Source: Rhodohalobacter sulfatireducens (GTDB lineage Bacteria; Bacteroidota; Rhodothermia; Balneolales; Balneolaceae). From it: DNA of 24,000 nt. The notes beneath the pieces were generated by a model. The model searched no databases and was not told where the DNA came from. It saw nothing but the letters and a program-made list of their open reading frames with translations. The stretch is from positions 6,916 through 30,915 of the forward strand of contig NZ_JAKLWS010000042.1 of the NCBI RefSeq assembly GCF_022012475.1, given 5' to 3'. This document shows, piece after piece, positions 7,105 to 20,817 of this stretch (the first letter of the stretch is position 1; every line of letters starts with the position of its first letter). Position numbers and translations under genes: made by a program.

Positions 7105-7566
7105 TTGGGTAACACATATTATCAGATGTATGTACAAACTGTTTTCCCAGTCAAATACAGAAAAGCGATGATCAACGACCTATGGAGACCGGGACTCCAG
7201 GGTGTTATCGGAAAAATAATCAATGATACCGAGTGCAAAACAATCATCATAAATGGTGTTGAAGATCATATTCACTGTCTATTTAGCCTAAAGCCTTCAC
7301 TTTCTCTTTCTGAGGTTATGAAAGAAGTCAAAGCCAAATCTTCAAAGTGGATCAATGAGAGTGGTTTTATTGAACACCGGTTTGAGTGGCAGCCGGGTTA
7401 CGGTGCGTTTTCATACAGCCAATCTCAATTGGGTTCTGTACATCGGTATATAAAGAATCAACAGGAGCATCATCAACAGATGAGCTTCAAGCAGGAGTAC
7501 ATCAAATTGCTTGATAAATTTCAGGTTGAGTATGATGAACGGTTTCTTTTTGATGAGTTGATATAA
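7105..7566 (+). CDS. IS200/IS605-type Y1 HUH transposase-like protein, REP-associated tyrosine transposase (RAYT)-like
   Basis: 153-aa ORF with a TTG start; an alternative ATG lies at 7126. It has the HUH motif 'EDHIHCLF' and the catalytic-Tyr motif 'VHRYIKNQQEHH'. The N-terminus 'NTYYQMYVQTVFPVKYRK' fits the family pattern. It is flanked on both sides by hairpin repeats. Confidence 0.8.
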   Translation: MGNTYYQMYVQTVFPVKYRKAMINDLWRPGLQGVIGKIINDTECKTIIINGVEDHIHCLFSLKPSLSLSEVMKEVKAKSSKWINESGFIEHRFEWQPGYGAFSYSQSQLGSVHRYIKNQQEHHQQMSFKQEYIKLLDKFQVEYDERFLFDELI

Positions 7567-7598
7567 GGACATAGTTGTCAGTCCCACTCTAAATGGAT

Positions 7599-8205
7599 CG
7601 TACCTACGGCACTCATTCCAAGATGAGAACCTCAATCCCCGGAATGAATTCCGGGGTTACAATATCATCATCCGCTCCGCGGATTGGAAAGAATGACACA
7701 TCAACTCTACTTATATCCGTGAATTGAAAGTTGTACCTCAAGCAGCGTAGCTGCGCCCAATACTGTAACCCAGGGATTCATCCCTGGGGTAGTTAGCGAA
7801 CCTGAACAATTGAGTGCCGTCAGGCACGGCCCATATCCCTGCGGCTGTGGTGACTTGCTCTTGATCGTACCATGTAAGATTGACACCACTTTTACTGAAC
7901 GTACCTACGGCACTCTTTCAAAGATAAGGTCCTCGATCCCCGGAATGAATTCCGGGGTTACAATATCATCATCCGCAGGGCGGATTTGGAGATCCTGCTT
8001 GATTACTTATTACAAATTGAAACAACGTTATTTACTTGCAAGCTTTTCACACTCTTTGCTTTGCACGAATTTTTTAAAATCCCGCAAACCTGATGTGTAC
8101 CTCAAGCAGCGTAGCTGCGCCCAATCCTGTAACCCAGGGATTCATCCCTGGGGTAGTTAGCGAACCTGAACAAGTGAGTGCCGTCAGGCACGTTCCATAC
8201 CCCTA
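7599..8205 (+). repeat. Composite multi-hairpin tandem repeat, right array (2 units; the first is shortened, the last is 3'-truncated)
   Basis: Units start at 7599 and 7900, in the same orientation and with the same hairpin set as the left array. Homology fades around 8205-8230. Confidence 0.85.
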
Positions 8206-8459
8206 AGACTTCGGCGGCTTGTGAAGATCGCCTTTTTTGTATTACGTGTTATACATGTACACATATCCGTTCACAATTTGAGCGATGACCGGTTCAACTT
8301 CGCATCAGTCAGCAGCCGGACAGGTATCTGAGATCGTTTAAAAGTATCCCTTTGGAGCAGATCTTCAATTTTATACCCATACCAGGAAATCCTGCAGCAA
8401 TAGACTTTTCCCACAAAAAAATGATGAAAACCGGGAGGTAGATGGGTTCAAAGAGTCAC

Positions 8460-8863: not shown

Positions 8864-9193
8864 TTATTCTCCATTAAACTTCTCGGCTCGAATAACCTCG
8901 ACATCTTCCAGGTAAACGATTCCTGAATACTTGTTAAAACACTCTTCAACAATCTTACTCCCTATCTCCTCTGCAATTGATTTATTTTTGACGATCACCT
9001 CGATTCGCACTGTCGAAAAGTCATCCACCACCGATGCCCTCTCTGACGTATAATGCTGGTGATGAGCTCCTTTACCCCCCGCAGGAACCACCGTATATCC
9101 ACGGGCACCACTTGATTCAATAATATCAAGGATTTTCGGCGTCAGAATTTTTTCAGCGATAATCACAGCTTTTTTTGCTTTGTGAAATGTCAT
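8864..9193 (-). CDS. sbtB: PII-like signalling protein SbtB
   Basis: 'KAVIIAEKILTPKILDIIESSGARGYTVVPAGGKG...IEVIVKNKSIAEEIGSKIVEECFNKYSGIVYLEDVEV' closely parallels cyanobacterial SbtB as I recall it. I prefer the ATG at 9191-9193, which is preceded by GGAGGA, over the track's upstream start at 9256, which would overlap sbtA. It lies directly downstream of sbtA. Confidence 0.75.
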   Translation of the reverse strand: MTFHKAKKAVIIAEKILTPKILDIIESSGARGYTVVPAGGKGAHHQHYTSERASVVDDFSTVRIEVIVKNKSIAEEIGSKIVEECFNKYSGIVYLEDVEVIRAEKFNGE

Positions 9194-9236
9194 GTTTATG
9201 TCCTCCGGGTAAGTTGGTTTGATAAAGAGATCGGAT

Positions 9237-10238
9237 TTAAAATACAATTTGTGCAAGTGCTATAAAGAGCGGAATTCCCACGGCGATAGCAATCGGTGTT
9301 CCCACACTGGTGGAAGCGCCAATGTAGGCCGATGGATTCGCAGAGGGAATGCCGGCCCGCAGTGTAGGCGGTCCCGAGATGTCGGAGTTGGACGATGCGA
9401 TTACAGCCAGAATCACCACGCCTCCCGCACTGAATCCAACCAGAAGGTGGGCGATGTATCCCAAGCCAAATGCGATGAGCCCATGCATTAAAGGAGCCAG
9501 GGCGGCATAGACGGCATACCAGTGAGCAACACTTCGCAGCTCCTTGATCCGGTCATATGCCTCCATTCCCATAATCAGCATAAGGATTGAAAGAAAGCCC
9601 CGGAATAACGGATCGTAAAAGGAGTGCAGCACAGAGTCTGAATTGGTCAGAAGTCCGAGGGCTAATCCGAGCAACAATGCGGACAAGGCAGATCCTCTCA
9701 AACTCTCCTTGATGATATTCCACACATTGACGTCGGTATCCTCCCCTTTTTCCTGCTTTTTCAGGTGAATGTTCGCCACCACAATGGCAAGTATCAGGGC
9801 CGGGATATCCATAAAGGGGTACAGAGCCGGTGCCCATGCTTCAAAGGGGATAGATTCCTCTTCAAGCACCACAATGGCAACAGCCAGCGTTGATGCACTT
9901 ACTGCCCCAAAGAGTCCGGCCGTTGCAATTCCGTCCTCTTTGTCAACCCCGGGCAGGATTGAAAAAACAGTGATACCGATCCTTACAGTCAGCAAACCGA
10001 TTAAGATCGACAGGAAGGCCGGAAGTGCCATTTCCAGCAGGTTTGCTTCCCGGATCTCGATGCCGCCCTCCAGCCCTATCTTCATGAGCAACATAAAGAC
10101 GATAAACTGATAGATGGCATTGGGTATTTTTAGCTTACTTCCAAGTGCAGCGACCAGCATCCCGCCAATCAGGAACCCCAGTGTGGGTGATTGAAATTGT
10201 ACCAGGAATCGAATAAAAAAATCCGCAATAAAGTCCAT
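9237..10238 (-). CDS. sbtA: Sodium-dependent bicarbonate transporter family permease SbtA
   Basis: 333-aa polytopic membrane protein. 'QSPTLGFLIGGM', 'GLFGAVSASTLA', 'YPFMDIPALILAIVVANI', 'FYDPLFRGFLSILMLIMGMEA' and 'SDISGPPTLRAGIPSANPSAYIGASTSVGTPIAI' are near-identical to conserved blocks of Synechocystis SbtA as I recall it. Confidence 0.85.
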   Translation of the reverse strand: MDFIADFFIRFLVQFQSPTLGFLIGGMLVAALGSKLKIPNAIYQFIVFMLLMKIGLEGGIEIREANLLEMALPAFLSILIGLLTVRIGITVFSILPGVDKEDGIATAGLFGAVSASTLAVAIVVLEEESIPFEAWAPALYPFMDIPALILAIVVANIHLKKQEKGEDTDVNVWNIIKESLRGSALSALLLGLALGLLTNSDSVLHSFYDPLFRGFLSILMLIMGMEAYDRIKELRSVAHWYAVYAALAPLMHGLIAFGLGYIAHLLVGFSAGGVVILAVIASSNSDISGPPTLRAGIPSANPSAYIGASTSVGTPIAIAVGIPLFIALAQIVF

Positions 10239-11347: not shown

Positions 11348-11800
11348 TCAGTTCTCCTGATAGATCTTAAGCAACTCTTTGCGTTTATAAAGCCGTTCAC
11401 CAATGTGAACTTTTGAACTCCCAAATGTTGCAGAAGCTTGTGCAATAAGTTTTTTCTCGTTTTCTGAGAGATTATTTTCCAGACGAACTGAACCTGCAGA
11501 TCCCTGATCTTTATACATAAGCAAAAGAACCTGTCGAACTTCATTTATGAAATTAAAGGCCCGGCAGTGCAAGAAAATATTGAGGACCAGGTCCGGTTCT
11601 GGAGAATCGCTGATTCGCTTTGGAAATGTGGCCAAAATGGTGACCTGTCCGTTTTTAACCTCTGCCACTTCAGCCCAAATCCCTTTAAACATGGCAATCC
11701 ATTTAATACCTGCCTGGGTAAAGGAATGATTAAGTTCTTTTAGCTCTTCGGCATTGAGCGTTATGTTGTATTTGCTTTTTTGATCGTTATTTGATTGCAT
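11348..11800 (-). CDS. Hypothetical protein (island-borne, unassigned)
   Basis: The ORF track gives 11348-11992 from a TTG. I prefer the first ATG (11798-11800; MQSNNDQKSKYNITL...), which gives 150 aa. I recognise no motif. Its AT-rich composition matches the island. Confidence 0.45.
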   Translation of the reverse strand: MQSNNDQKSKYNITLNAEELKELNHSFTQAGIKWIAMFKGIWAEVAEVKNGQVTILATFPKRISDSPEPDLVLNIFLHCRAFNFINEVRQVLLLMYKDQGSAGSVRLENNLSENEKKLIAQASATFGSSKVHIGERLYKRKELLKIYQEN

Positions 11801-12175
11801 AAGATGTAACGTTTTATGAAGATTTTGGTTCGTTACATCAAGACAGATAAGATGGGACTCGTATAATTGGATATCGAATCTAACTATCCCACATCGCTGA
11901 AACCACCGTGCCCGAGAAGGCCGGTTGGTAATTCGGCGGTAGACGAATTTCTTGACTTTTTTTGAAGATAAATATTGGTCAGAAATTCTCAACTTGTTTT
12001 AAAGGCTGTATTTTCGACCCTGCCACACTCAATTAGTGTGATTAGGTAATCAATTAATTGGATATGAAGATAACTGGAACTGATAAGTTGCTTCACTAAT
12101 GACTAAAAGCTTTTAAATTGAAAACTGACAGGAAAGAAAATAAATGTGACTAATGATTTATTAGGTACAACGTAT

Positions 12176-13021
12176 TCAAAAGTTCGGAAATCTATTATTT
12201 TTAATCTTCTTCTTTAATTCTTCAATTGTGTAAGGAGGTTTTTTTTTGTGGAGCATTGCATGACAGTTGGGACAAACAGGTACAAGATCTTTTTTGGGAT
12301 CTACGAAATATGTACCATCTATTTCTGACAAGGGTATTTTGTGATGCACATGAATGAAACCTTCTCCTATTTTGCCATAGATTTCTCCAAAATTCAAGGA
12401 ACATACCTTGCAGGTTGTACCATAAAGTTCAATGCATGCTGCTCGATTAATATTGCTCCGTTCATATCTTGTATTTGTAACTATATATGCCTCTCCTTCC
12501 TCCTCTACTGAATATCTATTTTCATTATCAATGGGCTCAAGAGGTAATAAAGAAATGCATAGACCAAAAAAAGAAATAACCCAAGGAAATACTTTTTCAA
12601 AGTCTTGATCAATTTCCTCTCCAAAAATAATCTGCCCCTTTCGCATTGAGATATCAATACTATTCCAGTTTATAGGCCATTGACTCGGCTCATTTGGTTT
12701 ATAAGATTGTTTATTTATTTGAAGATTTAAATCAGCTCCTTTCTCCAACAAGGATTCAGCGAAAACTTTGAAAGCAGCGCGCTGATTCTGATTAGAAGCC
12801 TCCATGGCGTTTACCAAATCTCTCGCAAAACTGCCCGGAACAAACTTGATTTCAACACTCCTCCACTTTAATTTTGTGAGGATTTTGAAACCAACCGTTC
12901 TTGCAAGATCTGATGGCCTAACAGTAATCGTTCTGTTGCCATGAAAACTTTCTATATTAACTGAAACATCAATACCGAATCGTTCTCTAAGTATTGATGA
13001 AGCATTATTTTCAGTAAGCAT
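12176..13021 (-). CDS. HNH endonuclease with an unassigned ~190-aa N-terminal domain
   Basis: The C-terminus is 'CKVCSLNFGEIYGKIGEGFIHVHHKIPLSEIDGTYFVDPKKDLVPVCPNCHAMLH' (CxxC...HH...CxxCH, a McrA-type zinc HNH). Its ATG (13019-13021) lies 1 nt after the upstream gene's TAG (13023-13025). Confidence 0.85.
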   Translation of the reverse strand: MLTENNASSILRERFGIDVSVNIESFHGNRTITVRPSDLARTVGFKILTKLKWRSVEIKFVPGSFARDLVNAMEASNQNQRAAFKVFAESLLEKGADLNLQINKQSYKPNEPSQWPINWNSIDISMRKGQIIFGEEIDQDFEKVFPWVISFFGLCISLLPLEPIDNENRYSVEEEGEAYIVTNTRYERSNINRAACIELYGTTCKVCSLNFGEIYGKIGEGFIHVHHKIPLSEIDGTYFVDPKKDLVPVCPNCHAMLHKKKPPYTIEELKKKIKNNRFPNF

Positions 13022-13022
13022 C

Positions 13023-14621
13023 CTATTCTTCTTCTAAAACTGGTTCAGGCAGATCTTCAACAAGTTTTCGCAGAATTCTTGAAACCTCGAATCTTAAATC
13101 CTGCATATGGTTTTTGGTTGTTTCACTCATTGTACGAAGCTCAGCTTCGATTAAAGACCAGAGCAAGGAATCCATACCCTGTATCAAGACTCCTGATGAA
13201 AGGTTAGGCACATAAACCTTACTGTAATAAGGATGGCCTGTATTAATTAAGACAGCTCGATTTCCATCTACAAGGGCCGGCTTCCAAAGCAAGCCATCAA
13301 CAATGCTTTCGACTGGCTTGACAAATACTTGGCCCGGCTTAACCGATGACTCTATATCCAATTTAATACTCACTTTGCCAGATTTATTGGTAACCTCTAC
13401 ATCATTCTGTTCCTCATCAACAACATCAATTTCAGCTCCTTTCAGATCCTTTTCCTTGCCTGAAATATTCCTGTTTGACTCATCATGAGCATCTTCCGAT
13501 TCTTCTTGGACTTTTTTCTTCTTGCCGGTCCTATATCTGTCATTAGCAGCAGTTCTAGGTGCAGGAAGAAATCTTTCGTGTACGAACTTGTAAAGTTCTT
13601 CATTTAGAATTATTTGAGATTTTTTTATATCAACCTGAAATGCCTCATCCAATTCATGATTAAATGAGAACTCAATTCTAAGAAGAGAGTAGTGAGGTTC
13701 CTTAGTGTACATTCCCAGCCAATCTGCAGGATGTATCAATCTGTTTTCTCTGTAAATGTAAATGCCTTGATTATCATTATTTATCTTGGCGCTCTCAGCA
13801 GCTTCCTCAGTACTGAAATTTTCATTGCGTGGTAGTACGAATGCCCGAATCTGAAACTCAGTTTCTGTTCCATCCCCAACCTCTACTTTGATACTCTCAT
13901 CAGCCACCATTTCAGTTTGTGGTTCTGATTCAAAAAATGGATTCCAAGGATCTATAGGTTTACCATTTAGATTCATCTCTATATTCCTTGCACGATCATC
14001 TTCAGGATCTAGAAATCGTTGATAAATCATTCCAGCATGTTCACGAAAACTCTTTACTCGTTTGTCCAAAGCTCTTTGCTCATATTTCCCCCCCGGAGTC
14101 GCATATTCTTTCAACAGTCTGTCAATAGTACCCCATATTACAAGAGTGCCTGATGAATTCTCAGCAGTTTTCTCAAGGTACTTTTTTTCAAAATTAGTTG
14201 GGCTCTCCAATAACAGCTCCCACTCAGCAACTTTCACCACGTGGTCAAGATCCCATGTAGCTTTTAGTGGTTCAACATCTGCGGAATGTCTAGTAATAAC
14301 AGATAATCTCCTGCAATAGGCAGTTGATGCAGTTTTTAGCCCGAGGCCAAATTTCCCCAATCTCTTGGGGTTGTTATCACCTTTGGAGCCATATGTCATA
14401 CCATCTTTCAAAGTTGTTTTATCCATTCCACAACCATTATCTGCCACCATGATTAATTTATCCCCGTCTCCGTCCATCTTGATGTAAATATCAATCTTGG
14501 TCGCATTTGCATCTACTGAGTTATCTACAATATCTGCCAATGCTGTATTGAAATCATAGCCCGTATCTCTTAATCCCTCCATTAATTTACTTGGATTGGG
14601 AGGTAAATTTACTTTATCCAT
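13023..14621 (-). CDS. MORC-like GHKL ATPase (HATPase_c_3-type)
   Basis: The Bergerat-fold motifs are present: 'ALADIVDNSVDANA' (N box), 'VADNGCGMD' (G1) and 'GKFGLGLKTAS' (G2). The MORC-type 'GIYIYRENRLIHPADW' lies downstream. The C-terminal half is long and charged. Confidence 0.8.
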   Translation of the reverse strand: MDKVNLPPNPSKLMEGLRDTGYDFNTALADIVDNSVDANATKIDIYIKMDGDGDKLIMVADNGCGMDKTTLKDGMTYGSKGDNNPKRLGKFGLGLKTASTAYCRRLSVITRHSADVEPLKATWDLDHVVKVAEWELLLESPTNFEKKYLEKTAENSSGTLVIWGTIDRLLKEYATPGGKYEQRALDKRVKSFREHAGMIYQRFLDPEDDRARNIEMNLNGKPIDPWNPFFESEPQTEMVADESIKVEVGDGTETEFQIRAFVLPRNENFSTEEAAESAKINNDNQGIYIYRENRLIHPADWLGMYTKEPHYSLLRIEFSFNHELDEAFQVDIKKSQIILNEELYKFVHERFLPAPRTAANDRYRTGKKKKVQEESEDAHDESNRNISGKEKDLKGAEIDVVDEEQNDVEVTNKSGKVSIKLDIESSVKPGQVFVKPVESIVDGLLWKPALVDGNRAVLINTGHPYYSKVYVPNLSSGVLIQGMDSLLWSLIEAELRTMSETTKNHMQDLRFEVSRILRKLVEDLPEPVLEEE

Positions 14622-14640
14622 AAGTCATCAGATTTTAGAA

Positions 14641-15066
14641 TTAAATATTAATTACTTTCCAGGAACTACCGAGCTTTAATTTTCCATTTTTGTCTGTTGA
14701 TATTTTATTCTGTTTCTCTAACTCGATTGAATAGATAGCATTATCATCTCGTTTCAATATTAGTTCATCACCTGCCTTTAGGCTGTGTTTTCTCATAAAT
14801 TTGGTCATTCCAGTTAATCGATACTCATTTCTGGTACCACCAAAAAATATATTGTTATAGTAAATATAATTGAATGTCCATTTTTCATTCATTGGATCTG
14901 CAAATTTGATTGAATGACGTGGATTCTTGGTTTCTTTGGTTAAAGAAGGAAAGAAGCTCAATATCTCCTGCTGCTTTGGTACATGAATACCTGCTTGATG
15001 AGCACCAGTTTCACCGGTATCATTTTTTGTCAATTCTTTACTTATAGATTTTGTTCTTTTTATCAT
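14641..15066 (-). CDS. Stand-alone EcoRII-N-terminal-like (B3-like pseudobarrel) DNA-binding domain protein
   Basis: The 141-aa protein aligns with the N-terminus of the EcoRII-like enzyme in this window. Compare 'LTKNDTGETGAHQAGIHVPK..FFPSL....KNP...IYYNNIFFGGTRNEYRLT' with 'LSGNDTLANGSHQAGPYVPK..VFPSL....KNP...IWYNNKFHGGTRNEARLT'. Confidence 0.8.
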   Translation of the reverse strand: MIKRTKSISKELTKNDTGETGAHQAGIHVPKQQEILSFFPSLTKETKNPRHSIKFADPMNEKWTFNYIYYNNIFFGGTRNEYRLTGMTKFMRKHSLKAGDELILKRDDNAIYSIELEKQNKISTDKNGKLKLGSSWKVINI

Positions 15067-15081
15067 AGTTATACGAATTTC

Positions 15082-17037
15082 TTAATTACTTAGAATTGGT
15101 GATTTTTTCAAAGATTTTCTAATATCTGCCAGATCCTCATCCTCGCCTTCAGTTCCAATTATGGCCTCTTCTGATAGCTCTCTTTTTCTTGACAATCTTT
15201 CATTAATCACTTCTTCAACTGTATTGGGATGATAGAGCCTGTGTACAGTAACGGGTCTTCTTTGTCCCAACCTGTGAACTCTGGCTGTGGCTTGATCTTC
15301 AACAGCTGGATTCCATTCAAGATTGTAATGAATGACATGATTTGCACTTGTAATATTTAAGCCAGTACCAGCAGCTTTGGGATTCAATACCAACAAAGAA
15401 GCACCCTCTCTTTCACTAAAAGCATCAACAATTTTCTGCCTTTCTTTAACAGGAATCCGCCCATCAATTTGATAACTTTTCATACCAAAATACCGAGACA
15501 GATAATCCGAAATAATATCAGACATGTTAAGGTATGAAGTAAACACCACACACTTTTCTTCATTGGACTTGATTTCGTCCATTAATTCCATAAGGCGTAA
15601 GAATTTAGTACTAGTAAAGGCAGGGTCACCATCAATGCTCTCATCAAGTAATTTGGGATGGGCACAAAATTGCCTGAGTTTGACTATTGATACCAAACTC
15701 GCATTGGCCTCATATTTCCTTTCAATCTCCAGCCTAATTTCTTCATATTTCCGACTTGCTTCATCAGAAAGGGGTATTGGTTGAGGAATAATAATTTTTT
15801 CAGGCAAATTGTTGGCTACTTCAGGTATGGTTCTTCTTAGGATAAAAGGAGAAACTATCTGTTCAACTCTTTTTGCATCCTCAATCGAATCTTGATAATT
15901 AGTCTCAAAATATTCTCTATCCCCAAGAAATCCTTTATTGCAAAAATCCATTATTGACCATAGATCAGTCAATGAATTTTCTACAGGTGTACCAGTAACT
16001 GCTATGTATACATCACTATCCAGTTTTTTTAAAATATTAGCTCTTTGGGTCTCTGGATTTTTTATTGCCTGGGCTTCATCTATGACAAAAAAGGACCAGT
16101 TTATCATGTTCAACATCGAATAATCTCTAACAGCAGTATCATAAGAGCTTATGACGATATCATACTCTTTGATGTATGAAGGAAATCCAGTGCGATCTGA
16201 TCCTATGTGGATTAAGATCTTTAGATCAGGAGCAAATTTTTTAATCTCTCTTCGCCAGTTCTCCAACAATGTTGCTGGAGCTATAACCAATGTTGGTGAA
16301 GGCATTTCCCTGTTGTTCAATAGAACTAATGCAATAATTTGAATAGTCTTTCCCAGTCCCATTTCATCTGCTAAAATACAACCCAGACGCTCTTGTGCTA
16401 TCATATTCAGCCAAAAAACACCAGTACGCTGGTAATCATAAAGTGTAGCCTCGAATCCGTTCTCGTCAAGTTTGGCTTGAACATCTAAATTCTGATCGAT
16501 TAAATCTTCTTTATCGAGAATTGCATCTTCAGATGTGATCTCTACGTATTCGGGTGCCCCCTTGGCTATCTCTATACATTTTGACAGGTTTATTGGCCCT
16601 GAAGATTCAAGCTCAAAGTCCTCAAATAGGGAATGGATTTGATCCATTTCAGACTTGAGTATTGGGTACCACTGAGAATCCAGGATAAGCTGATCTGAAT
16701 CGGGGAGTTTTTTTAGGTCTACTCTTATGTTTTCACCAACCGCTTTTAGTAATAAATGTGGTTTGACTTTCTTTGTCTCAGGAATTAAAAGCTTAACTTC
16801 AATAGAAAGGGGAAAACGGTGAAATTTTAGGTTTTTGAGTTCAATAGATGGTTTATTTCTTATGTTGGTCCCATGAATCTCCTTTTTATCTTTGTACTCA
16901 ACCTTTACTATATCTGATGAATTTATTTTAATTAATTGTCCTGAGTCAACAAATACAACCTCCCCATTTTTAATTTGCCACTGATTGGTATTTGACACTT
17001 CAGTTCTATTCCGAGCATCTTGGTTAAGAGATTTCAT
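15082..17037 (-). CDS. SNF2-family (SF2) helicase/translocase with an unassigned ~190-aa N-terminal region
   Basis: It has 'LYDYQRTGVFWL', 'LADEMGLGKT' (motif I), 'FVIDEAQAIKN' (motif II) and 'VTGTPVEN'. The C-terminal lobe has 'LLVLNPKAAGTGLNITSANHVIHYNLEWNPAVEDQATARVHRLGQ'. Confidence 0.9.
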   Translation of the reverse strand: MKSLNQDARNRTEVSNTNQWQIKNGEVVFVDSGQLIKINSSDIVKVEYKDKKEIHGTNIRNKPSIELKNLKFHRFPLSIEVKLLIPETKKVKPHLLLKAVGENIRVDLKKLPDSDQLILDSQWYPILKSEMDQIHSLFEDFELESSGPINLSKCIEIAKGAPEYVEITSEDAILDKEDLIDQNLDVQAKLDENGFEATLYDYQRTGVFWLNMIAQERLGCILADEMGLGKTIQIIALVLLNNREMPSPTLVIAPATLLENWRREIKKFAPDLKILIHIGSDRTGFPSYIKEYDIVISSYDTAVRDYSMLNMINWSFFVIDEAQAIKNPETQRANILKKLDSDVYIAVTGTPVENSLTDLWSIMDFCNKGFLGDREYFETNYQDSIEDAKRVEQIVSPFILRRTIPEVANNLPEKIIIPQPIPLSDEASRKYEEIRLEIERKYEANASLVSIVKLRQFCAHPKLLDESIDGDPAFTSTKFLRLMELMDEIKSNEEKCVVFTSYLNMSDIISDYLSRYFGMKSYQIDGRIPVKERQKIVDAFSEREGASLLVLNPKAAGTGLNITSANHVIHYNLEWNPAVEDQATARVHRLGQRRPVTVHRLYHPNTVEEVINERLSRKRELSEEAIIGTEGEDEDLADIRKSLKKSPILSN

Positions 17038-17263
17038 GATTTGTACTATCTCAAGTAGAATTAATTGCAGGCATACCTATAAAAACCTATTTAAAGATTT
17101 TTTGCAAAACATCTGCATTAATTTGACTATAAGAAAATTATATACTTGGTTTTTTCCCGCATCATTACTGTAAAATTTCGTTACTTAAAAAGACAGATAT
17201 GCATTATTTTTAAAGAAAATAAAAAGTATTTCAGGTCTTTTATAGTTTTTTTAAAAACTCTTC

Positions 17264-17293
17264 TTTGATATGTAAGAATTATGTTTATATTTG
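17264..17293 (+). promoter_or_regulatory. Putative Bacteroidota-type promoter (TTTG -33 / TAnnTTTG -7) for the HTH-dcm gene
   Basis: TTTG at 17264-17267 and TATATTTG at 17286-17293 are separated by 18 nt. The motif lies 29 nt upstream of the ATG at 17323. It is relevant only if the host uses the Bacteroidota sigma-A consensus. Confidence 0.35.
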
Positions 17294-17322
17294 GGACAAA
17301 ATGTCAAAAAAAGTCCCAGATC

Positions 17323-18606
17323 ATGGAAAAATTTAATACTCTCAGAGAAAAAGCAGGATTATCAATCGAAGAAGTTGCAGAGCTTACTAACTATAGTAAA
17401 AGACATGTATACAGATGGGAGAATGGAAAAATTAAACCCAAGAAGCCAATCCTAGATGAATTATCTCGAATAGCTGAGAATGGTATTTCTTTTAAAGCCA
17501 ATGGCAAAACAGAATTTACTTTCATTGATTTATTTGCAGGAATTGGAGGAATGAGGAAAGGTTTTGAAAGTGTTGGTGGAAAATGTGTGTTTACAAGTGA
17601 GTGGAATAAATATGCCCGGCAAACCTATGCTGCTAATTTTGAAATGGACCATGATATTGCAGGGGACATAACAAAAATATCAGAGAAAGATATACCTGAA
17701 CACGATGTTTTGCTTGCTGGATTTCCTTGTCAACCTTTCTCTATTGCAGGCGTTTCAAAGAAAAACTCCCTTGGAAATCCACATGGTTTTGAAGACAAGA
17801 CGCAAGGTACTTTATTTTTTGATATTGCAAGAATTCTCAAGCATCATAAACCGTCTGCCATTTTATTGGAGAATGTTAAAAATCTTGTAAGTCATGACAA
17901 GGGGAAAACTTTTCAGGTGATTAAAGACACACTTCAAGAACTGGATTATTTCTTTGATACCCGAATAATTGATGCAAAATCTTTTCTTCCACAACATAGA
18001 GAAAGAATTTTTATTGCTGGATTCAGAACTGATTTAGGATTTGATTTTTCAGAATTAGATATACCTGATGTGAATTCCGGTCCTAAACTTAAATCAATTT
18101 TACATCCCCAAGATGGAAGCGAAGAGGAAGAATTACCTTTTACAATTGGTGAAAAAGCCAAAGTTAATCCTAAATACACTTTAAGTGACAAACTCTGGAA
18201 TTACCTCCAAGATTATGCTGAAAAGCACAGAAAAAAGGGAAATGGTTTTGGTTTTGGATTGGTAGGTCCCGAAGATACTACCAGAACCTTGTCTGCTAGA
18301 TACTATAAAGACGGATCCGAAATTTTGCTTAAACAAGAAGGAAAAAACCCTCGAAGATTAACACCTCGTGAATGTTCTCGATTGATGGGATTTGATAGAA
18401 CCGGAGAAAATGGATTTGAAATACCTGTTTCAGATACCCAAGCTTATAAACAATTTGGTAATGCAGTGGCCGTACCTGTTGTGGAAGAGATTGCCAAATT
18501 TATAAAGCCTTTTATTCTGGAAGAGAAGAAACAGAAAGGGCAATTATTTATGTTTTCAGGAACCACTGATGATGGCAAGAATGAATATTTATCTAAAAGT
18601 GGTTAA
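17323..18606 (+). CDS. dcm: DNA (cytosine-5) methyltransferase, Dcm/M.EcoRII-like, with an N-terminal XRE-type HTH domain
   Basis: The HTH is 'LREKAGLSIEEVAELTNYSKRHVYRWENGK'. The m5C motifs are 'FIDLFAGIGGMRKGF' (I), 'LLAGFPCQPFS' (IV), 'LLENVKNL' (VI), 'RRLTPRECSRLMGF' and 'QFGNAVAVPV' (X). The track start at 17281 adds 14 unlikely residues, so I prefer the ATG at 17323 (MEKFNTL...). Confidence 0.9.
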   Translation: MEKFNTLREKAGLSIEEVAELTNYSKRHVYRWENGKIKPKKPILDELSRIAENGISFKANGKTEFTFIDLFAGIGGMRKGFESVGGKCVFTSEWNKYARQTYAANFEMDHDIAGDITKISEKDIPEHDVLLAGFPCQPFSIAGVSKKNSLGNPHGFEDKTQGTLFFDIARILKHHKPSAILLENVKNLVSHDKGKTFQVIKDTLQELDYFFDTRIIDAKSFLPQHRERIFIAGFRTDLGFDFSELDIPDVNSGPKLKSILHPQDGSEEEELPFTIGEKAKVNPKYTLSDKLWNYLQDYAEKHRKKGNGFGFGLVGPEDTTRTLSARYYKDGSEILLKQEGKNPRRLTPRECSRLMGFDRTGENGFEIPVSDTQAYKQFGNAVAVPVVEEIAKFIKPFILEEKKQKGQLFMFSGTTDDGKNEYLSKSG

Positions 18607-18691
18607 TGGAATTATTATTTAAATGATGACTTCTAAATACAATAATAAAGTAGTCTATGAAAAAGAAACTGCATAACAATGAGAAAATTCA

Positions 18692-19918
18692 ATGAAGCCT
18701 AAATTAATTAGTTGGATTGATGATGTTAAAACTCCGGGGTACATATGCTACATAAAGCGACTTTCAGGAAATGATACACTCGCAAATGGTTCTCATCAAG
18801 CAGGTCCATATGTACCTAAAAAAGTACTACTAGGCGTATTTCCATCTCTTAAAAATAAAAATGAGAAAAATCCAGATATATGGTTCGATTTATTCATTGA
18901 TTCCCATAATGACCAAAATGAAGTACGGGCAATTTGGTACAACAATAAATTTCATGGAGGGACAAGGAATGAAGCTCGTTTGACTAATTTCGGAGGTTCT
19001 AATTCTGCTTTACTTGATCCTGATAACACAGGAGCTCTTGTTGTTTTTGCCTTTTTATTGGACAATAAATGTCAAACTGAAGTTTGCAGAGTTTGGATTT
19101 GCAGTGATGAGTTAGAAGAGCGAATAGTTGAAGATTGGGTTGGACCAATTGATCCGGGGCAATGGCAAATATGGTATGATGAAGAATTTGATTGTGCAAA
19201 AACTCTGGTGACTGATTATGAGAAAGACCTTACAAAAAAATCTTGTTGGCTAGATAAGGATGAAATTCCAAAAGGATGGCTGGAAAATTATCCCAGTGGT
19301 TTGGAGATAATAAAAAAGACCGTTGAACTAAGGCCCAGTTACAAGCTACTTCCCGATGAAAGGATAATTAAAAGACGGGAATGTGAATTTGAAGTCTTTA
19401 AGAGCTTGGAAGAAGCTGTAGAATTTCCAAGAATAAAAAAAGGGTTTAAAAATATAGATGAATTTTTGTCAAGAGCACAGAGTATTCTTCAACGCAGAAA
19501 ATCACGTTCTGGATATTCACTGGAATTACATACAAAAGAAATCTTTTTGGAAGAAAATTTAAAAGAGAGTGTACATTTTTCACATCAACCAGAATCAGAA
19601 AAAGGGAAAAAGCCAGACTTTCTTTTTCCGTCTGAAGAAGCTTATAAAAATTCAGGTTTTCCGACTTCTAATCTTAAAATGCTTGCAGTAAAAACTACAT
19701 GTAAAGATAGATGGCGTCAGATTCTTAATGAGGCAGAAAGAATTGAAAAAAAGCATTTGTTAACTATCCAAGAAGGTGTTTCAGAGAACCAATTTAATGA
19801 AATGAAAAAATCTAGTGTTCAGTTAGTAGTACCTGAACCTCTCTTCAAAAAATATCCTGAAAAAATTAGACCACAGCTTCAAACACTTGAGAGTTTTATT
19901 AAAGAGGTTAAAACTTGA
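18692..19918 (+). CDS. EcoRII-family type IIE restriction endonuclease (expected CCWGG specificity)
   Basis: The 408-aa protein is collinear with R.EcoRII as I recall it. The N-terminal effector domain has 'YIKRLSGNDT..GSHQAG' and 'DPDNTGALVVFAF'. The catalytic domain has 'KKPDFLFPS' and 'LKMLAVKTTCKDRWRQILNEA', followed by 'LLTIQEGVS'. Confidence 0.9.
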   Translation: MKPKLISWIDDVKTPGYICYIKRLSGNDTLANGSHQAGPYVPKKVLLGVFPSLKNKNEKNPDIWFDLFIDSHNDQNEVRAIWYNNKFHGGTRNEARLTNFGGSNSALLDPDNTGALVVFAFLLDNKCQTEVCRVWICSDELEERIVEDWVGPIDPGQWQIWYDEEFDCAKTLVTDYEKDLTKKSCWLDKDEIPKGWLENYPSGLEIIKKTVELRPSYKLLPDERIIKRRECEFEVFKSLEEAVEFPRIKKGFKNIDEFLSRAQSILQRRKSRSGYSLELHTKEIFLEENLKESVHFSHQPESEKGKKPDFLFPSEEAYKNSGFPTSNLKMLAVKTTCKDRWRQILNEAERIEKKHLLTIQEGVSENQFNEMKKSSVQLVVPEPLFKKYPEKIRPQLQTLESFIKEVKT

Positions 19919-19921
19919 TTA

Positions 19922-20347
19922 TTATTTTAAATTATTTTGAAGGTTATTGGCTAATCCAGCTAATGTTTTGGTCTTTTTATCCGGTTTCATCTCACACTCC
20001 CAAACAACAATAACATTCCATCCCAAATCTTCCAATTCCTGAATATGCTTTTCATCACGTTCCTTATTTCCGTAAAGCTTCTCTTTCCACCATTCTGTTC
20101 GGGTTTGAGGAATTTTAAAATATTTGCAATCCTCATGCGCATGCCAAAAACACCCATGTACAAAAATGACTGTATTGTATTTAGGCATGACCAGATCCGG
20201 CTTTCCCGGTAAGTCTTTTCTGTGAAGACCGTATCGAAAGCCATTGGTGTGCAGAAATTTCCGGACAATCATTTCAGGCTTGGTATCCTTGCCTGAAATC
20301 TTGCTCATGTTATAACTGCGGGTTTCCGGCTCGTGTACGTCTGCCAT
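19922..20347 (-). CDS. vsr: Very-short-patch repair endonuclease
   Basis: 'MADVHEPETRSYNMSKI...', 'LPGKPDLVMPKYNTVIFVHGCFWHAHEDC', 'TRTEWWKEKLYGNKERD' and 'GWNVIVVWECE' closely follow E. coli Vsr. It converges on the EcoRII-like gene with a 3-nt gap. Confidence 0.9.
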   Translation of the reverse strand: MADVHEPETRSYNMSKISGKDTKPEMIVRKFLHTNGFRYGLHRKDLPGKPDLVMPKYNTVIFVHGCFWHAHEDCKYFKIPQTRTEWWKEKLYGNKERDEKHIQELEDLGWNVIVVWECEMKPDKKTKTLAGLANNLQNNLK

Positions 20348-20351
20348 CTCA

Positions 20352-20633
20352 TTAAGATTCTATGTTTTTCAATTCAATAAACTCACCTATAAAATTACCA
20401 ATCTCTTCGTATTCCTCATCAAACTTCAGAACGATTTGCCTCGTTACCAGATCCACCCATTCTTTAATTTCTGATCTGTTATCAAATTCCTTTAAAAAGA
20501 TTAGCATTGGGTTCTCAACAGTAAAATCATCATTAAAAAACAAACAAATATCTGTCTTAAAAGAATCTCTGTAGTTATCCTCCGCCTGATAAAGATAGGT
20601 TTTGAGTGTTCTTATCTTGTCTTTGTAATTCAT
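20352..20633 (-). CDS. Hypothetical small acidic protein, upstream of and apparently co-transcribed with vsr
   Basis: The track ORF (to 20681) starts at a TTG. I prefer the ATG at 20631-20633 (MNYKDKIRTLK..., 93 aa). Its stop is 4 nt before the vsr start. I recognise no family. Confidence 0.45.
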   Translation of the reverse strand: MNYKDKIRTLKTYLYQAEDNYRDSFKTDICLFFNDDFTVENPMLIFLKEFDNRSEIKEWVDLVTRQIVLKFDEEYEEIGNFIGEFIELKNIES

Positions 20634-20817
20634 GATAAAAAAGCCAGTTTCACAGTCCGTATGTCCTGAATATAGCAGCAAAAAATCAGAAACAAAGGCA
20701 CTTATCTCAATATCTCCTAGCTGAAGATATATCCGAACGCAGAGATGTTAAAGCGTAGATGATAGATTCATTTGACTGCATGCATTTAATATCGAATCGC
20801 GCCTGATGAATATCAAC

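What the first reader, a model, noticed from the sequence alone, without database searches (positions are those of the whole stretch)
14641..15066. A free-standing paralog of the EcoRII effector (B3-like) domain is encoded inside the helicase/MORC/HNH operon
The 141-aa protein is essentially just the N-terminal effector-binding domain of the EcoRII-type enzyme encoded 3.6 kb away. Shared blocks are L(T/S)xNDT..G.HQAG..VPK, FPSL, KNP, (Y/W)YNN.F.GGTRNE.RLT.

In EcoRII this domain recognises CCWGG as an allosteric effector and autoinhibits the catalytic domain (established knowledge). A stand-alone copy used as a subunit of a different ATP-dependent machine would be modular re-use of a specificity domain.

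Two alternative roles are possible. It could act in trans on the neighbouring EcoRII enzyme or compete for its sites. It could also have diverged to read a modified or different motif.
Basis: partly seen in the sequence, partly recalled or inferred. Interest (0 to 1): 0.8.

Follow-up and report, generated by a model that had tools for sequence, protein, structure and literature searches.

The report
Free-standing CCWGG-reading B3 protein in restriction operon
The 141-residue protein is a real, strongly conserved stand-alone copy of the DNA-reading domain of the restriction enzyme EcoRII. It most likely tells a helicase/MORC/HNH cutting machine which unmethylated DNA to attack, and this gene arrangement was already described by comparative genomics in 2008, though never tested experimentally.

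Summary
**Observation: confirmed.**
- Window 14641-15066 (-) encodes a 141-aa protein.
- It matches the N-domain of the EcoRII orthologue 3.6 kb away: 50% identity over 78 aa, E 1e-16.
- It matches Pfam EcoRII-N (E 4e-17) and has a B3 pseudobarrel fold.

**Specificity.**
- All seven EcoRII-N residues that contact the CCWGG bases are conserved, and they are nearly invariant across the ~140-aa family.

**Genomic context.**
- In 53 of 53 well-flanked genomic loci from many phyla, the gene sits directly after an SNF2 helicase gene and alongside a MORC-like GHKL ATPase and an HNH nuclease.
- 51 of 53 loci carry a Dcm-type C5 methyltransferase and 48 of 53 carry Vsr.
- Only 32 of 53 carry any EcoRII-C nuclease, so the B3 protein does not depend on EcoRII.
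- Natural B3-MORC and B3-HNH fusions exist.

**Best reading (confidence 0.65).**
- The protein is the specificity subunit of an ATP-dependent, methylation-sensitive restriction complex.
- The cognate methylase would be the adjacent Dcm.

**Novelty.**
- Iyer, Abhiman and Aravind (2008) already described MORC + SWI2/SNF2 + HNH operons with a VP1/RAV (B3) protein, a cytosine methylase and Vsr.
- NCBI already names the protein.
- I found no experimental study.
- This is therefore a new member of a known, predicted kind.

The parts
14641..15066 (-). 141-aa free-standing B3 / EcoRII-N-like DNA-binding protein; predicted reader of unmethylated CCWGG (specificity subunit)
   Evidence: Pfam EcoRII-N E 3.7e-17 and B3 E 5e-7. 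BLASTP to the neighbouring EcoRII N-domain E 1e-16. AF2 model pLDDT 82 with Foldseek hits to B3 and EcoRII-N structures. N15, H23, Q24, Y70, R79, E81, R83 correspond to the EcoRII base contacts N28, H36, Q37, Y85, R94, E96, R98. pN 0.096 against pS 0.72 versus the Fodinibius orthologue.
15082..17037 (-). SNF2-family helicase/translocase (651 aa), first gene of the operon; B3 always follows it
   Evidence: Pfam SNF2-rel_dom E 1.5e-62 and Helicase_C E 2.7e-21. PADLOC ZorD/DpdE-like SNF2 hits. SNF2-to-B3 adjacency in 80/81 loci, in both gene orders.
13023..14621 (-). MORC-like GHKL ATPase (532 aa)
   Evidence: Pfam HATPase_c_3 E 2.9e-28. NCBIfam MzaB 197 bits, far below the 850 cut-off. Best PDB relatives are human MORC2 (E 1e-7), then MutL/PMS2. 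Present in 53/53 well-flanked loci. Fused to B3 in P0268, P0298 and P0266.
12176..13021 (-). HNH nuclease (281 aa) with an uncharacterised N-terminal domain
   Evidence: Pfam HNH E 7e-6. The catalytic H-N-H and CxxC...CxxC residues are invariant in 26 orthologues. AF2 pLDDT 85; the N-domain has only a weak match to YktB/DUF1054. Present in 53/53 loci.
17038..17280 (.). 243-bp A+T-rich intergenic region between the divergent restriction operon and the HTH-methylase gene (presumed shared promoter/control region)
   Evidence: Sequence read. No CCWGG site lies in it. Only weak A/T palindromes were found. A regulatory role is inferred, not shown.
17281..18606 (+). HTH-fused Dcm-type C5 cytosine methyltransferase; predicted cognate (protective) methylase, CCWGG
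   Evidence: Pfam DNA_methylase E 3.5e-88 plus an N-terminal HTH_3. 51% identity to E. coli K-12 Dcm over 385 aa, including the variable region. A Dcm homologue lies within 10 kb in 51/53 loci.
18692..19918 (+). Full-length EcoRII orthologue (N effector + C catalytic domain); a second, independent CCWGG restriction arm sharing the methylase
   Evidence: phmmer to EcoRII 1na6 E 5e-100 over residues 7-406. Pfam EcoRII-N E 2e-53 and EcoRII-C E 1e-62. It is an optional neighbour: any EcoRII-C is present in 32/53 loci.
19922..20347 (-). Vsr very-short-patch repair endonuclease (repairs T:G from 5mC deamination)
   Evidence: Pfam Vsr E 1.4e-32. 47% identity to E. coli Vsr. Present in 48/53 loci.

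Best explanation
The 141-aa protein is a compact B3 (DNA-binding pseudobarrel) protein of the EcoRII-N lineage. It most likely serves as the separate sequence-specificity subunit of a four-protein, ATP-dependent restriction complex made of the SNF2 translocase, the B3 reader, a MORC-like GHKL ATPase and an HNH nuclease.

**Proposed mechanism.**
1. B3 grips the major groove of unmethylated 5'-CCWGG-3' with its N- and C-arms. 5-methylation of the inner cytosine by the adjacent Dcm-type methylase blocks binding, which protects host DNA.
2. B3 is held on the complex. It is translationally coupled to SNF2 and is fused to the N-terminus of the MORC ATPase in some relatives.
3. ATP-driven SNF2 translocation and MORC head dimerisation reel in or clamp DNA.
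4. The HNH nuclease then cuts.
5. Vsr repairs the T:G mismatches that Dcm methylation produces.

**Shown here:** the fold, conservation of the seven base-contact residues, the conserved gene module and its linkage to Dcm/Vsr, the fusions, and purifying selection.

**Inferred:** CCWGG binding and methyl-sensitivity (by analogy with EcoRII-N biochemistry), the physical complex, and the order of events in cleavage.
For: **Fold and family.**
- Pfam EcoRII-N E 3.7e-17 and B3 E 5e-7.
- PDB sequence hits to EcoRII-N and plant B3.
- AF2 model plus Foldseek hits.

**Specificity.**
- In EcoRII-N, the bases of CCTGG are read by N28, H36, Q37, Y85, R94, E96 and R98.
- EcoRII-N binding is abolished by 5mC on the inner C of either strand (Golovenko 2009, PMC2770665).
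- The aligned residues here are N15, H23, Q24, Y70, R79, E81 and R83.
- They are invariant in 29 orthologues and 99-100% conserved in 120 close cluster representatives.
- They are 86-100% conserved in 134 representatives of 50%-identity clusters.

**Cognate methylase.**
- The window methylase is 51% identical to E. coli Dcm and the Vsr is 47% identical to E. coli Vsr.
- The EcoRII next door is a true orthologue.

**Module conservation** in 53 loci with at least 6 kb on both sides:
- SNF2 53, MORC 53, HNH 53, Dcm 51, Vsr 48, EcoRII-C 32.
- Some loci are one co-directional operon, Dcm-SNF2-B3-MORC-HNH-Vsr (L002, L003, L007, L028, L098).
- The six-gene module sits on a 19-kb P. putida plasmid with no EcoRII gene annotated.
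- B3 directly follows SNF2 in 80/81 loci, in both gene orders.

**Physical linkage.**
- B3-GHKL fusions are P0268, P0298 and P0266; B3-HNH fusions are P0258, P0355 and P0334.

**Co-variation.**
- In L100 the B3 C-arm recognition loop is altered. The methylases there are two non-Dcm C5 enzymes, 34-37% identical to the window Dcm.

**Catalytic competence.**
- The HNH motif is invariant across orthologues.
- The SNF2 Walker A and DEAQ motifs and the GHKL N/G boxes are readable in the translations.

**Precedents.**
- B3 domains give specificity to NTP-dependent restriction enzymes in NgoAVII/CglI (PMC4267654).
- LlaJI.R1 is another structural precedent (Foldseek hit 6c5d).
- Iyer et al. 2008 predicted these operons to be R-M systems.
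Against: - No experiment exists on any member: no DNA binding, complex formation, cleavage or phage restriction has been shown.
- I found none in 8 million full texts.
- The methylase's CCWGG specificity is inferred from 51% identity to Dcm, not measured.
- Contact residues were mapped through a sequence alignment, not a structural superposition with DNA.
- Y41 of EcoRII, a phosphate contact, is not conserved (His or Leu here).
- How a monomeric 5-bp reader would license cleavage is unknown.
- The roles of two different ATPases in one complex are unknown.
- The HNH N-domain has no identified function.
- The fusions come from single metagenomic contigs, one of them at low coverage, and some could be assembly artefacts.
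- The co-variation evidence rests on one locus.
- The 81 loci are the closest relatives (37-61% identity) of the query, so the context statistics describe this subfamily only.
Confidence: 0.65

Rival explanations
1. The free B3 protein works on the neighbouring EcoRII-type nuclease. It would act either as a trans effector domain or as a competitor or protector that occupies CCWGG sites and tunes EcoRII cleavage.
For: It reads the same predicted site as EcoRII and lies 3.6 kb from an EcoRII orthologue. An EcoRII-C nuclease is found near the module in 32/53 loci.
Against: 20/53 well-flanked loci have Dcm but no EcoRII-C. The P. putida plasmid module has no EcoRII gene annotated. SNF2, MORC and HNH are present in 53/53 loci. 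B3 is fused to MORC or HNH, and no fusion to a lone EcoRII-C was seen among the ten long representatives scanned. The EcoRII-C enzymes nearby are full-size (~400 aa) with their own N-domain. The type of EcoRII gene differs between close relatives while the four-gene module is kept.
Confidence: 0.05
2. The protein is a small transcription factor (a controller-protein analogue, like plant B3 factors) that regulates the operon or the methylase gene, rather than being a subunit of the enzyme.
For: It is a ~140-aa stand-alone DNA-binding domain. Structurally and by Pfam it is as close to plant B3 transcription-factor domains as to EcoRII-N. R-M systems often carry small regulators.
Against: There is no CCWGG site in the 243-bp divergent promoter region. 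The methylase already carries its own HTH. B3 sits inside the operon, translationally coupled to SNF2. It is fused to the MORC ATPase or the HNH nuclease in relatives. Its base-contact residues match the methylase's predicted target across phyla, which a promoter operator would not require.
Confidence: 0.08
3. The module is not a classical restriction enzyme. One possibility is a Dcm-linked repair or surveillance machine, with the MutL-like MORC working with Vsr at CCWGG sites. Another is a DNA-compacting or silencing system for foreign DNA, with B3 as the recruiter.
For: MORC is a MutL relative. In E. coli, Vsr repair is stimulated by MutL; this is established knowledge that I did not test here. 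Vsr is sometimes the last gene of the same operon (L002, L003, L007, L028, L098). Eukaryotic MORCs compact and silence DNA.
Against: An intact HNH nuclease is invariably present. 5/53 loci lack Vsr. The module travels on plasmids and integrative islands like a defence system. The window island has low G+C and is depleted in CCWGG. Iyer et al. interpret these operons as R-M systems.
Confidence: 0.12
4. The window's B3 protein has diverged from EcoRII-N and reads a different or a modified (for example 5mC-containing) motif.
For: The C-terminal half differs from EcoRII-N; the Pfam match stops at residue 89. Phosphate contact Y41 is replaced. Family members with changed contact residues exist. JGI annotates the HNH partner as 'McrA-like', by HNH similarity only.
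Against: 7 of 7 base-contact residues are retained and nearly invariant. The module is linked to a Dcm-type methylase in 51/53 loci, so reading methylated CCWGG would be suicidal. The HNH protein's N-domain shows no match to known 5mC readers.
Confidence: 0.1

Closest known systems
Prokaryotic MORC + SWI2/SNF2 restriction-modification operons predicted by Iyer, Abhiman & Aravind 2008 (Biol Direct 3:8), their 'second group'
   Same: [quoted passage not shown] The window locus is an instance of this class.
   Different: Nothing structural differs. That paper gives no residue-level specificity prediction, no statistics on the B3 gene's position and no fusions. The class remains experimentally untested.
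EcoRII N-terminal effector domain (Type IIE; PDB 1na6, 3hqf)
   Same: Same fold, same N-arm/C-arm motifs, and all seven CCWGG base-contact residues. The predicted methyl-sensitivity is the same.
   Different: EcoRII-N is covalently fused to the PD-(D/E)XK EcoRII-C domain and acts as an autoinhibitor and allosteric activator. Here the domain is a separate 141-aa protein, shorter (~115-aa barrel plus a conserved tail), partnered with SNF2, MORC and HNH, and independent of EcoRII-C.
NgoAVII / CglI ATP-dependent restriction enzymes (R-protein: PLD nuclease + B3; N-protein: helicase-like ATPase)
   Same: A B3-like domain supplies sequence specificity to a multi-subunit restriction enzyme that needs ATP hydrolysis by a separate SF2-type ATPase.
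   Different: There the B3 is fused to a PLD nuclease, the site is GCCGC, and there is no MORC and no HNH. Here B3 is free, the nuclease is HNH and there are two ATPases.
LlaJI (R1: B3-like N-domain + McrB-type AAA+ GTPase; R2: nuclease)
   Same: A B3-like reader directs an NTP-dependent restriction motor; the structural hit is to 6c5d.
   Different: The B3 is fused to the motor, the motor is a GTPase of the McrB family, and there is no SNF2 or MORC.
Type I R-M systems (HsdS specificity subunit + HsdR SF2 translocase-nuclease)
   Same: The logic is the same: a separate specificity subunit, an SF2 translocase, and a cognate methylation that blocks attack.
   Different: HsdS has a different fold and also directs the methylase. 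Here the methylase is an autonomous Dcm-type enzyme, and the nuclease is a separate HNH protein.
[not shown]
   Same: The GHKL ATPase is the best PADLOC/NCBIfam relative (MzaB, E 3e-58). MZA corresponds to Iyer's 'third group' of MORC operons; that mapping is my own inference, since the paper does not name MZA.
Plant B3 transcription-factor domains (ARF, VAL1, FUS3, RAV1)
   Same: These are the best structural matches (Foldseek E 1e-7, TM ~0.65-0.8 on the B3 core). Pfam B3 sits just under threshold and phmmer to ARF5 gives E 1e-4. The compact size is similar.
   Different: The recognition residues and targets differ. The plant domains sit inside transcription factors, not in restriction operons.

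Membership tests
EcoRII-N / B3 DNA-binding pseudobarrel superfamily | Significant profile match to the family model | tested here: met
   Pfam EcoRII-N 63 bits against a cut-off of 25, E 3.7e-17. Pfam B3 29.9 bits against 30.1.
EcoRII-N / B3 DNA-binding pseudobarrel superfamily | Seven/eight-stranded pseudobarrel fold | tested here: met
   AF2 model pLDDT 82, pTM 0.77. Foldseek prob 1.00 to ARF, VAL1 and FUS3 B3 domains, EcoRII-N 3hqf, UbaLAI-N, BfiI-C and LlaJI.R1-N.
EcoRII-N / B3 DNA-binding pseudobarrel superfamily | N-arm and C-arm carrying the CCWGG base-contact residues (N28, H36, Q37, Y85, R94, E96, R98 of EcoRII) | tested here: met
   N15, H23, Q24, Y70, R79, E81 and R83 align to them. 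They are invariant in A1 and 86-100% conserved in 254 family members.
EcoRII-N / B3 DNA-binding pseudobarrel superfamily | Sequence-specific binding of CCWGG, abolished by C5 methylation | not testable with these tools
   Needs EMSA. This is known for EcoRII-N only (PMC2770665).
Type IIE EcoRII effector domain (allosteric, autoinhibitory) | Covalent fusion to an EcoRII-C PD-(D/E)XK catalytic domain | tested here: not met
   The ORF ends after 141 aa. The 120 closest cluster representatives are 137-155 aa.
Type IIE EcoRII effector domain (allosteric, autoinhibitory) | Obligate co-occurrence with an EcoRII-C nuclease | tested here: not met
   EcoRII-C is present in only 32/53 well-flanked loci. 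20/53 have Dcm and no EcoRII-C. The plasmid NZ_CP043577.1 has none annotated.
MORC + SWI2/SNF2 R-M operons (Iyer et al. 2008, group 2) | MORC-type GHKL ATPase gene next to a SWI2/SNF2 helicase gene | tested here: met
   HATPase_c_3 E 2.9e-28 and SNF2-rel_dom E 1.5e-62 in one operon. Present in 53/53 loci.
MORC + SWI2/SNF2 R-M operons (Iyer et al. 2008, group 2) | HNH or EcoRII-like nuclease, and a VP1/RAV (B3) protein | tested here: met
   An HNH gene with an intact motif and the B3 protein. Both are named in the paper.
MORC + SWI2/SNF2 R-M operons (Iyer et al. 2008, group 2) | Neighbouring cytosine methylase and Vsr | tested here: met
   Dcm and Vsr are in the window. They occur in 51/53 and 48/53 loci respectively.
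MORC + SWI2/SNF2 R-M operons (Iyer et al. 2008, group 2) | Restriction of unmodified DNA | not testable with these tools
   I found no experimental report.
NgoAVII/CglI-type ATP-dependent restriction enzymes | B3 domain fused to a PLD (HKD) nuclease; separate helicase-like N-protein | tested here: not met
   There is no PLD domain in the operon, B3 is free, and the nuclease is HNH. The resemblance is functional only.
[not shown]
   [not shown]

The most novel reading that the evidence does not exclude
The Dcm/Vsr-linked SNF2-B3-MORC-HNH module is a distinct, widespread and still uncharacterised class of ATP-dependent restriction enzyme. In it, a free ~140-aa B3 protein would be an exchangeable specificity subunit. 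It would read unmethylated CCWGG here and other motifs in variants such as L100. A MORC ATPase would clamp or loop the DNA that an SNF2 motor reels in. That would make it a bacterial working model for sequence-directed recruitment of MORC and SNF2 ATPases. It would also contain the closest bacterial relative of the plant B3 domain.
Probability: 0.5. Interest if true: 0.65.

Novelty: new member of a known kind. Interest (0 to 1): 0.42.

Why it matters
If the model is right, this would be a restriction enzyme built from three parts that eukaryotes later used for chromatin control: a B3 DNA reader, a MORC ATPase and an SNF2 remodeller. Its specificity would be supplied by a tiny separate protein.

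- **Tractable system.** It offers a simple bacterial setting to ask how MORC ATPases are brought to DNA and what they do next to an SNF2 motor.
- **Clean genetic test.** E. coli Dcm should protect against it.
- **Defence annotation gap.** The module escapes current defence-system catalogues; PADLOC and NCBIfam gave no system-level match.
- **How common it is.** The module is on plasmids and islands in many phyla, with at least 185 loci found in 185,579 species-representative genomes.
- **Limit on novelty.** The arrangement itself has been in the literature since 2008.

Tried and rejected
**Searches and tests that led nowhere.**
- PADLOC and NCBIfam gave no defence-system assignment. The only relevant hits were generic SNF2 (ZorD/DpdE-like) and a sub-threshold MzaB.
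- Sigma-70 promoter and terminator scan of the island was not above shuffled expectation. The organism is in the Bacteroidota-related group, so the consensus probably does not apply.
- No convincing operator palindrome was found in the 243-bp divergent region.
- The module was not found in 5,426 complete E. coli genomes using a Citrobacter-MAG copy as a megablast query.
- Three of the five context look-ups for B3 variants with altered contact residues (L102-L104) returned contigs too short to show the methylase. L101 was also too short. Co-variation therefore rests on L100 alone.
- Literature searches for experimental work found nothing. One badly chosen query was swamped by 'stand-alone' clinical papers.

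**Ideas considered and rejected.**
- Pseudogene remnant of a truncated EcoRII: rejected, because there are about 1,900 homologues of the same length, a conserved C-terminal tail and dN much lower than dS.
- Recent local duplication of the neighbour's N-domain: rejected, because the stand-alone proteins form a separate clade.

Full report
**1. What is in the window**

NCBI lists the identical protein (P0001, 100% identity) from Rhodohalobacter sulfatireducens and names it 'EcoRII N-terminal effector-binding domain-containing protein'.

A tightly packed operon lies on the minus strand:

| Gene | Coordinates | Size | Main Pfam evidence |
|---|---|---|---|
| SNF2 helicase | 15082-17037 | 651 aa | SNF2-rel_dom E 1.5e-62 |
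| Protein in question | 14641-15066 | 141 aa | EcoRII-N E 3.7e-17 |
| MORC-like GHKL ATPase | 13023-14621 | 532 aa | HATPase_c_3 E 2.9e-28 |
| HNH nuclease | 12176-13021 | 281 aa | HNH E 7e-6 |

The other genes of the island are these:
- **Methylase:** an HTH-fused C5 methylase (17281-18606) lies divergently across a 243-bp gap.
- **EcoRII:** a full-length EcoRII orthologue (18692-19918) follows it. It matches 1na6 at E 5e-100 over residues 7-406.
- **Vsr:** a Vsr gene lies at 19922-20347 on the minus strand.
- **Dcm and Vsr identity:** the methylase is 51% identical to E. coli K-12 Dcm over 385 aa, and the Vsr is 47% identical to E. coli Vsr.
- **Composition:** the block 12.0-20.7 kb has 32-39% G+C against 44-50% in the flanks.
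- **CCWGG sites:** the block holds 3 CCWGG sites against 12 expected from a Markov model. The flanks are not depleted, at 45 against 40.

This is the signature of an acquired island.

**2.

- Pfam EcoRII-N is well above threshold. Pfam B3 is 0.2 bits under its threshold.
- PDB sequence search finds EcoRII-N (3hqf, 1na6; E ~1e-7) and plant ARF5 B3 (E 1e-4).
- An AlphaFold2 model built on 29 orthologues (pLDDT 82) is a B3 pseudobarrel.
- Its Foldseek hits at probability 1.00 are ARF, VAL1, FUS3, TEM1 and NGA1 B3 domains, EcoRII-N, UbaLAI-N, BfiI-C and LlaJI.R1-N.

Two refinements apply:
- Sequence similarity to EcoRII-N is confined to residues 8-89, the two DNA-gripping arms. The rest is a shortened, plant-B3-like barrel plus a family-specific tail (G.LKLG..WKV.I, residues ~128-141), which is modelled with low confidence.
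- The protein is not a recent copy of its neighbour. In a neighbour-joining tree the stand-alone proteins of 13 loci form one clade, separate from the EcoRII N-domains of the same loci.

**3. It is a real gene of a large family**

- 1,928 clusters (at 90% identity) match at E <= 1e-3.
- The best 120 are all 137-155 aa.
- 452 representatives of 50%-identity clusters match.
- Against the Fodinibius orthologue, pN = 0.096 and pS = 0.72. Synonymous sites are saturated, so dN/dS is about 0.04 or less. This is the same regime as the MORC and SNF2 genes.

**4. Predicted specificity**

The crystal structure of EcoRII-N with DNA shows that the bases of CCTGG are read by N28, H36, Q37, Y85, R94, E96 and R98. 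C5 methylation of the inner cytosine on either strand abolishes binding (Golovenko et al. 2009, PMC2770665; summarised also in PMC5766183).

- In the HMMER alignment to 1na6 these residues correspond to N15, H23, Q24, Y70, R79, E81 and R83.
- All seven are invariant in 29 orthologues.
- They are 99-100% conserved in 120 close cluster representatives and 86-100% conserved in 134 distant ones.
- Several phosphate contacts (K23, T93, T100) are also kept. Y41 is not.

I therefore predict binding to unmethylated CCWGG. This is an inference from homology, not a measurement.

**5. Context across genomes**

A scan of 185,579 species-representative genomes found 185 loci encoding relatives, and I examined the best 80 plus one more. 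I located homologues of each window protein in them by tblastn.

Counts in the 53 loci with at least 6 kb on both sides:

| Neighbour | Loci with it (of 53) |
|---|---|
| SNF2 | 53 |
| MORC | 53 |
| HNH | 53 |
| Dcm-type methylase | 51 |
| Vsr | 48 |
| Any EcoRII-C nuclease | 32 |
| EcoRII with a recognisable EcoRII-N | 8 |
| Dcm but no EcoRII-C | 20 |

- **Phyla:** the hosts span Bacteroidota, Pseudomonadota, Bacillota, Verrucomicrobiota, Planctomycetota, Acidobacteriota and others.
- **Gene orders:** two orders occur, SNF2-B3-MORC-HNH (73 loci) and MORC-HNH-SNF2-B3 (8 loci).
- **Sub-modules:** B3 follows SNF2 in 80/81 loci (median gap 27 nt) and HNH follows MORC, so the sub-modules are [SNF2-B3] and [MORC-HNH].
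- **Translational coupling:** in several genomes the SNF2 stop overlaps the B3 start.
- **Single operons:** in L002, L003, L007, L028 and L098 everything is one co-directional operon, Dcm-SNF2-B3-MORC-HNH-Vsr.
- **Plasmids:** the module is on plasmids of Rhizobium, Agrobacterium, Marinobacter, Sphingomonas, Burkholderia and Pseudomonas.
- **P. putida plasmid:** a 19-kb P. putida plasmid carries dcm, vsr, MORC, HNH, SNF2 and B3 beside an integrase, with no EcoRII gene annotated.
- **Fodinibius:** in this close relative the module sits in an integrase-bearing island. Its gene arrangement and EcoRII type differ from the window, while the four genes are conserved.
- **Viral contigs:** ten IMG/VR contigs also carry it.

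**6. Fusions**

Among 50%-identity cluster representatives, the B3 module is found in several fused forms:
- It is fused to the N-terminus of the GHKL ATPase in P0268 (683 aa), P0298 and P0266.
- It is fused to the HNH protein in P0258, P0355 and P0334.
- It is fused to a GmrSD_N domain in P0312.

P0268 sits exactly where B3 and MORC would be, after an SNF2 gene (L083), and is an end-to-end fusion that keeps the B3 tail. These are single metagenomic contigs. The recurrence in three clusters argues for real fusions, but individual cases (for example the 3x-coverage contig L084) may be artefacts.

**7. Co-variation hint**

- In L100 the B3 C-arm loop reads YYNDKYFGKPANKCHDEFRLT instead of YYNN.FFGGTRNEYRLT.
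- In that locus the operon is preceded by two C5 methylases only 34-37% identical to the window Dcm, with unrelated variable regions.
- L098 has milder changes (N->T, R->K) and keeps a Dcm-like methylase, 47% identical.
- This fits B3 being matched to the methylase, but the sample is tiny. L101 was too short to show a methylase, and the other look-ups also gave contigs too short.

**8. Most likely mechanism**

B3 is the specificity subunit of an ATP-dependent restriction complex. It recognises unmethylated CCWGG, and Dcm methylation protects the host. B3 is tethered to SNF2 and/or MORC. SNF2 translocation and MORC ATP-driven dimerisation bring DNA to the HNH nuclease, and Vsr limits the mutagenic cost of 5mC.

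The enzymes look catalytically competent:
- The HNH and zinc ligands are invariant.
- The SNF2 Walker A (GLGKT) and DEAQ motifs are present in the translations.
- The GHKL N-box (DNSVDA), DNGCGM and GKFGLGLK motifs are also present.

In this window one methylase would serve two independent CCWGG restriction arms: classical EcoRII and the four-protein machine. Only the architecture and residue conservation are shown. Binding, complex formation and cleavage are inferred.

**9. Rivals**

- **Trans action on EcoRII** is disfavoured by the 20/53 loci and the plasmid that lack any EcoRII-C. It is also disfavoured because the neighbouring EcoRII-C enzymes are full-size, with their own N-domain. That N-domain has no Pfam hit but aligns weakly to B3 (hhalign E 5.7e-4, probability 29%).
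- **A regulator role** is disfavoured by the lack of CCWGG in the promoter region, the operon position and the fusions.
- **A repair or silencing role with Vsr and the MutL-like MORC** cannot be excluded, but the invariant HNH nuclease and the mobile-island lifestyle argue for restriction.
- **A changed or methyl-directed specificity** is disfavoured by the 7/7 conserved contacts and the obligatory Dcm partner. The HNH N-domain shows no similarity to 5mC readers.

**10. Comparison with what is known**

Iyer, Abhiman and Aravind (2008) described MORC operons whose SFII helicase is SWI2/SNF2. [quoted passage not shown] They also noted cytosine methylases and Vsr nearby (PMC2292703; restated in PMC3417536). 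The window is a member of that predicted class.

- Functionally it works most like NgoAVII/CglI, where a B3 specifies the site for an ATP-dependent multi-subunit enzyme (PMC4267654), and like LlaJI. It fails their defining architectures: there is no PLD fusion and no McrB-type GTPase.
- I found no experimental work on the module in the searchable literature.

**11. Verdict**

The arrangement is already known as a computational prediction, and the protein is already named in RefSeq.

What this analysis adds:
- a residue-level CCWGG prediction;
- quantified linkage to Dcm/Vsr and independence from EcoRII;
- the SNF2-B3 adjacency rule;
- natural fusions;
- a concrete genetic test in dcm+ versus dcm- E. 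coli.

Interest is moderate. The system is uncharacterised and attractive experimentally, but it would not surprise a specialist.

Noticed in passing
window 6102-6885 and 7593-8221, flanking ORF 7105-7566 (+): An IS200-like Y1 transposase (Pfam Y1_Tnp E 4e-28) is flanked on both sides by ~365-nt repeats. The repeats carry strong hairpin palindromes (CCCAGGGATTCATCCCTGGG and CCCCGGAATGAATTCCGGGG). This is a REP-associated-transposase (RAYT/REPtron)-like arrangement. The hairpin stems contain paired CCWGG sites 13 bp apart.
   Followed up: partly
window 11853-11963 (-): A SAM-I/IV riboswitch (Rfam RF01725, 47.5 bits against gathering 41.1) lies just downstream of the HNH gene. It overlaps the 5' part of the mechanical ORF 11348-11992, so that ORF's start is probably wrong. 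The ~150-aa ORF it would control has no Pfam hit.
   Followed up: partly
window 12000-20700: The whole R-M island has 32-39% G+C against 44-50% in the flanks. It contains 3 CCWGG sites against 12 expected (Markov) or 5.6 (mononucleotide). The flanks are not depleted, at 45 against 40. One of the three sites (14659) lies in the 3' end of the B3 gene.
   Followed up: partly
L001, L011, L023, L025, L039, L049, L060, L063, L076, L087 (EcoRII-C genes next to the module): Most EcoRII-C nucleases beside the module are ~400 aa. Their N-terminal ~200 aa has no Pfam hit. It carries motifs (K.LS.VEA...S.QHE, TWYDAR...R.EhRLY, GD.L) that align weakly to the B3 family (hhalign E 5.7e-4, probability 29%). 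This may be an undescribed variant effector domain.
   Followed up: partly
P0268/L083, P0298, P0266, P0258/L084, P0355, P0334, P0312, P0353, P0377: The same B3 subfamily occurs fused to a GHKL/MORC ATPase, to the HNH protein, to a GmrSD_N domain, to a long protein with a sigma-70 region-4 match, and at the C-terminus of an unannotated 540-aa region.
   Followed up: partly
L099/L100 (protein P0342): A variant module has an altered B3 C-arm loop, two non-Dcm C5 methylases (34-37% identical to the window Dcm), a longer HNH protein plus an extra HNH_2 protein, and no Vsr in view. It probably has a different, possibly asymmetric, target.
   Followed up: partly
window 12176-13021 (-), residues 1-165 of the HNH protein: A conserved N-terminal alpha/beta domain is confidently modelled (pLDDT 85). 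It has invariant Trp residues (W53, W115, W119) and only a weak structural match to YktB/DUF1054 (2a8e, E 0.02). Its function is unknown.
   Followed up: partly
L001 2630-3802 and L005: In two loci an AAA_16/NACHT-like ATPase gene and a 93-aa ORF sit between Vsr and a short (358-aa) EcoRII-C protein.
   Followed up: no
window 8864-10238 (-): An SbtA-like Na+-dependent bicarbonate transporter (Pfam Sbt_1 E 1.6e-88) is followed, with overlap, by a P-II-like protein (E 4e-16). This is an SbtA/SbtB-type pair outside the island.
   Followed up: no
window 17281-17330: The mechanical start of the methylase ORF (ATG 17281, MFIFGTKCQKKSQI...) is probably too far upstream. A second ATG at about 17324 (MEKFNTLREK...) immediately precedes the HTH domain.
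   Followed up: no
L088-L097 (IMG/VR contigs): Ten contigs of the viral collection encode the B3 protein. One of them is the Jannaschia seosinensis contig also seen as L015. I did not check whether these are prophages or mis-called host islands.
   Followed up: no
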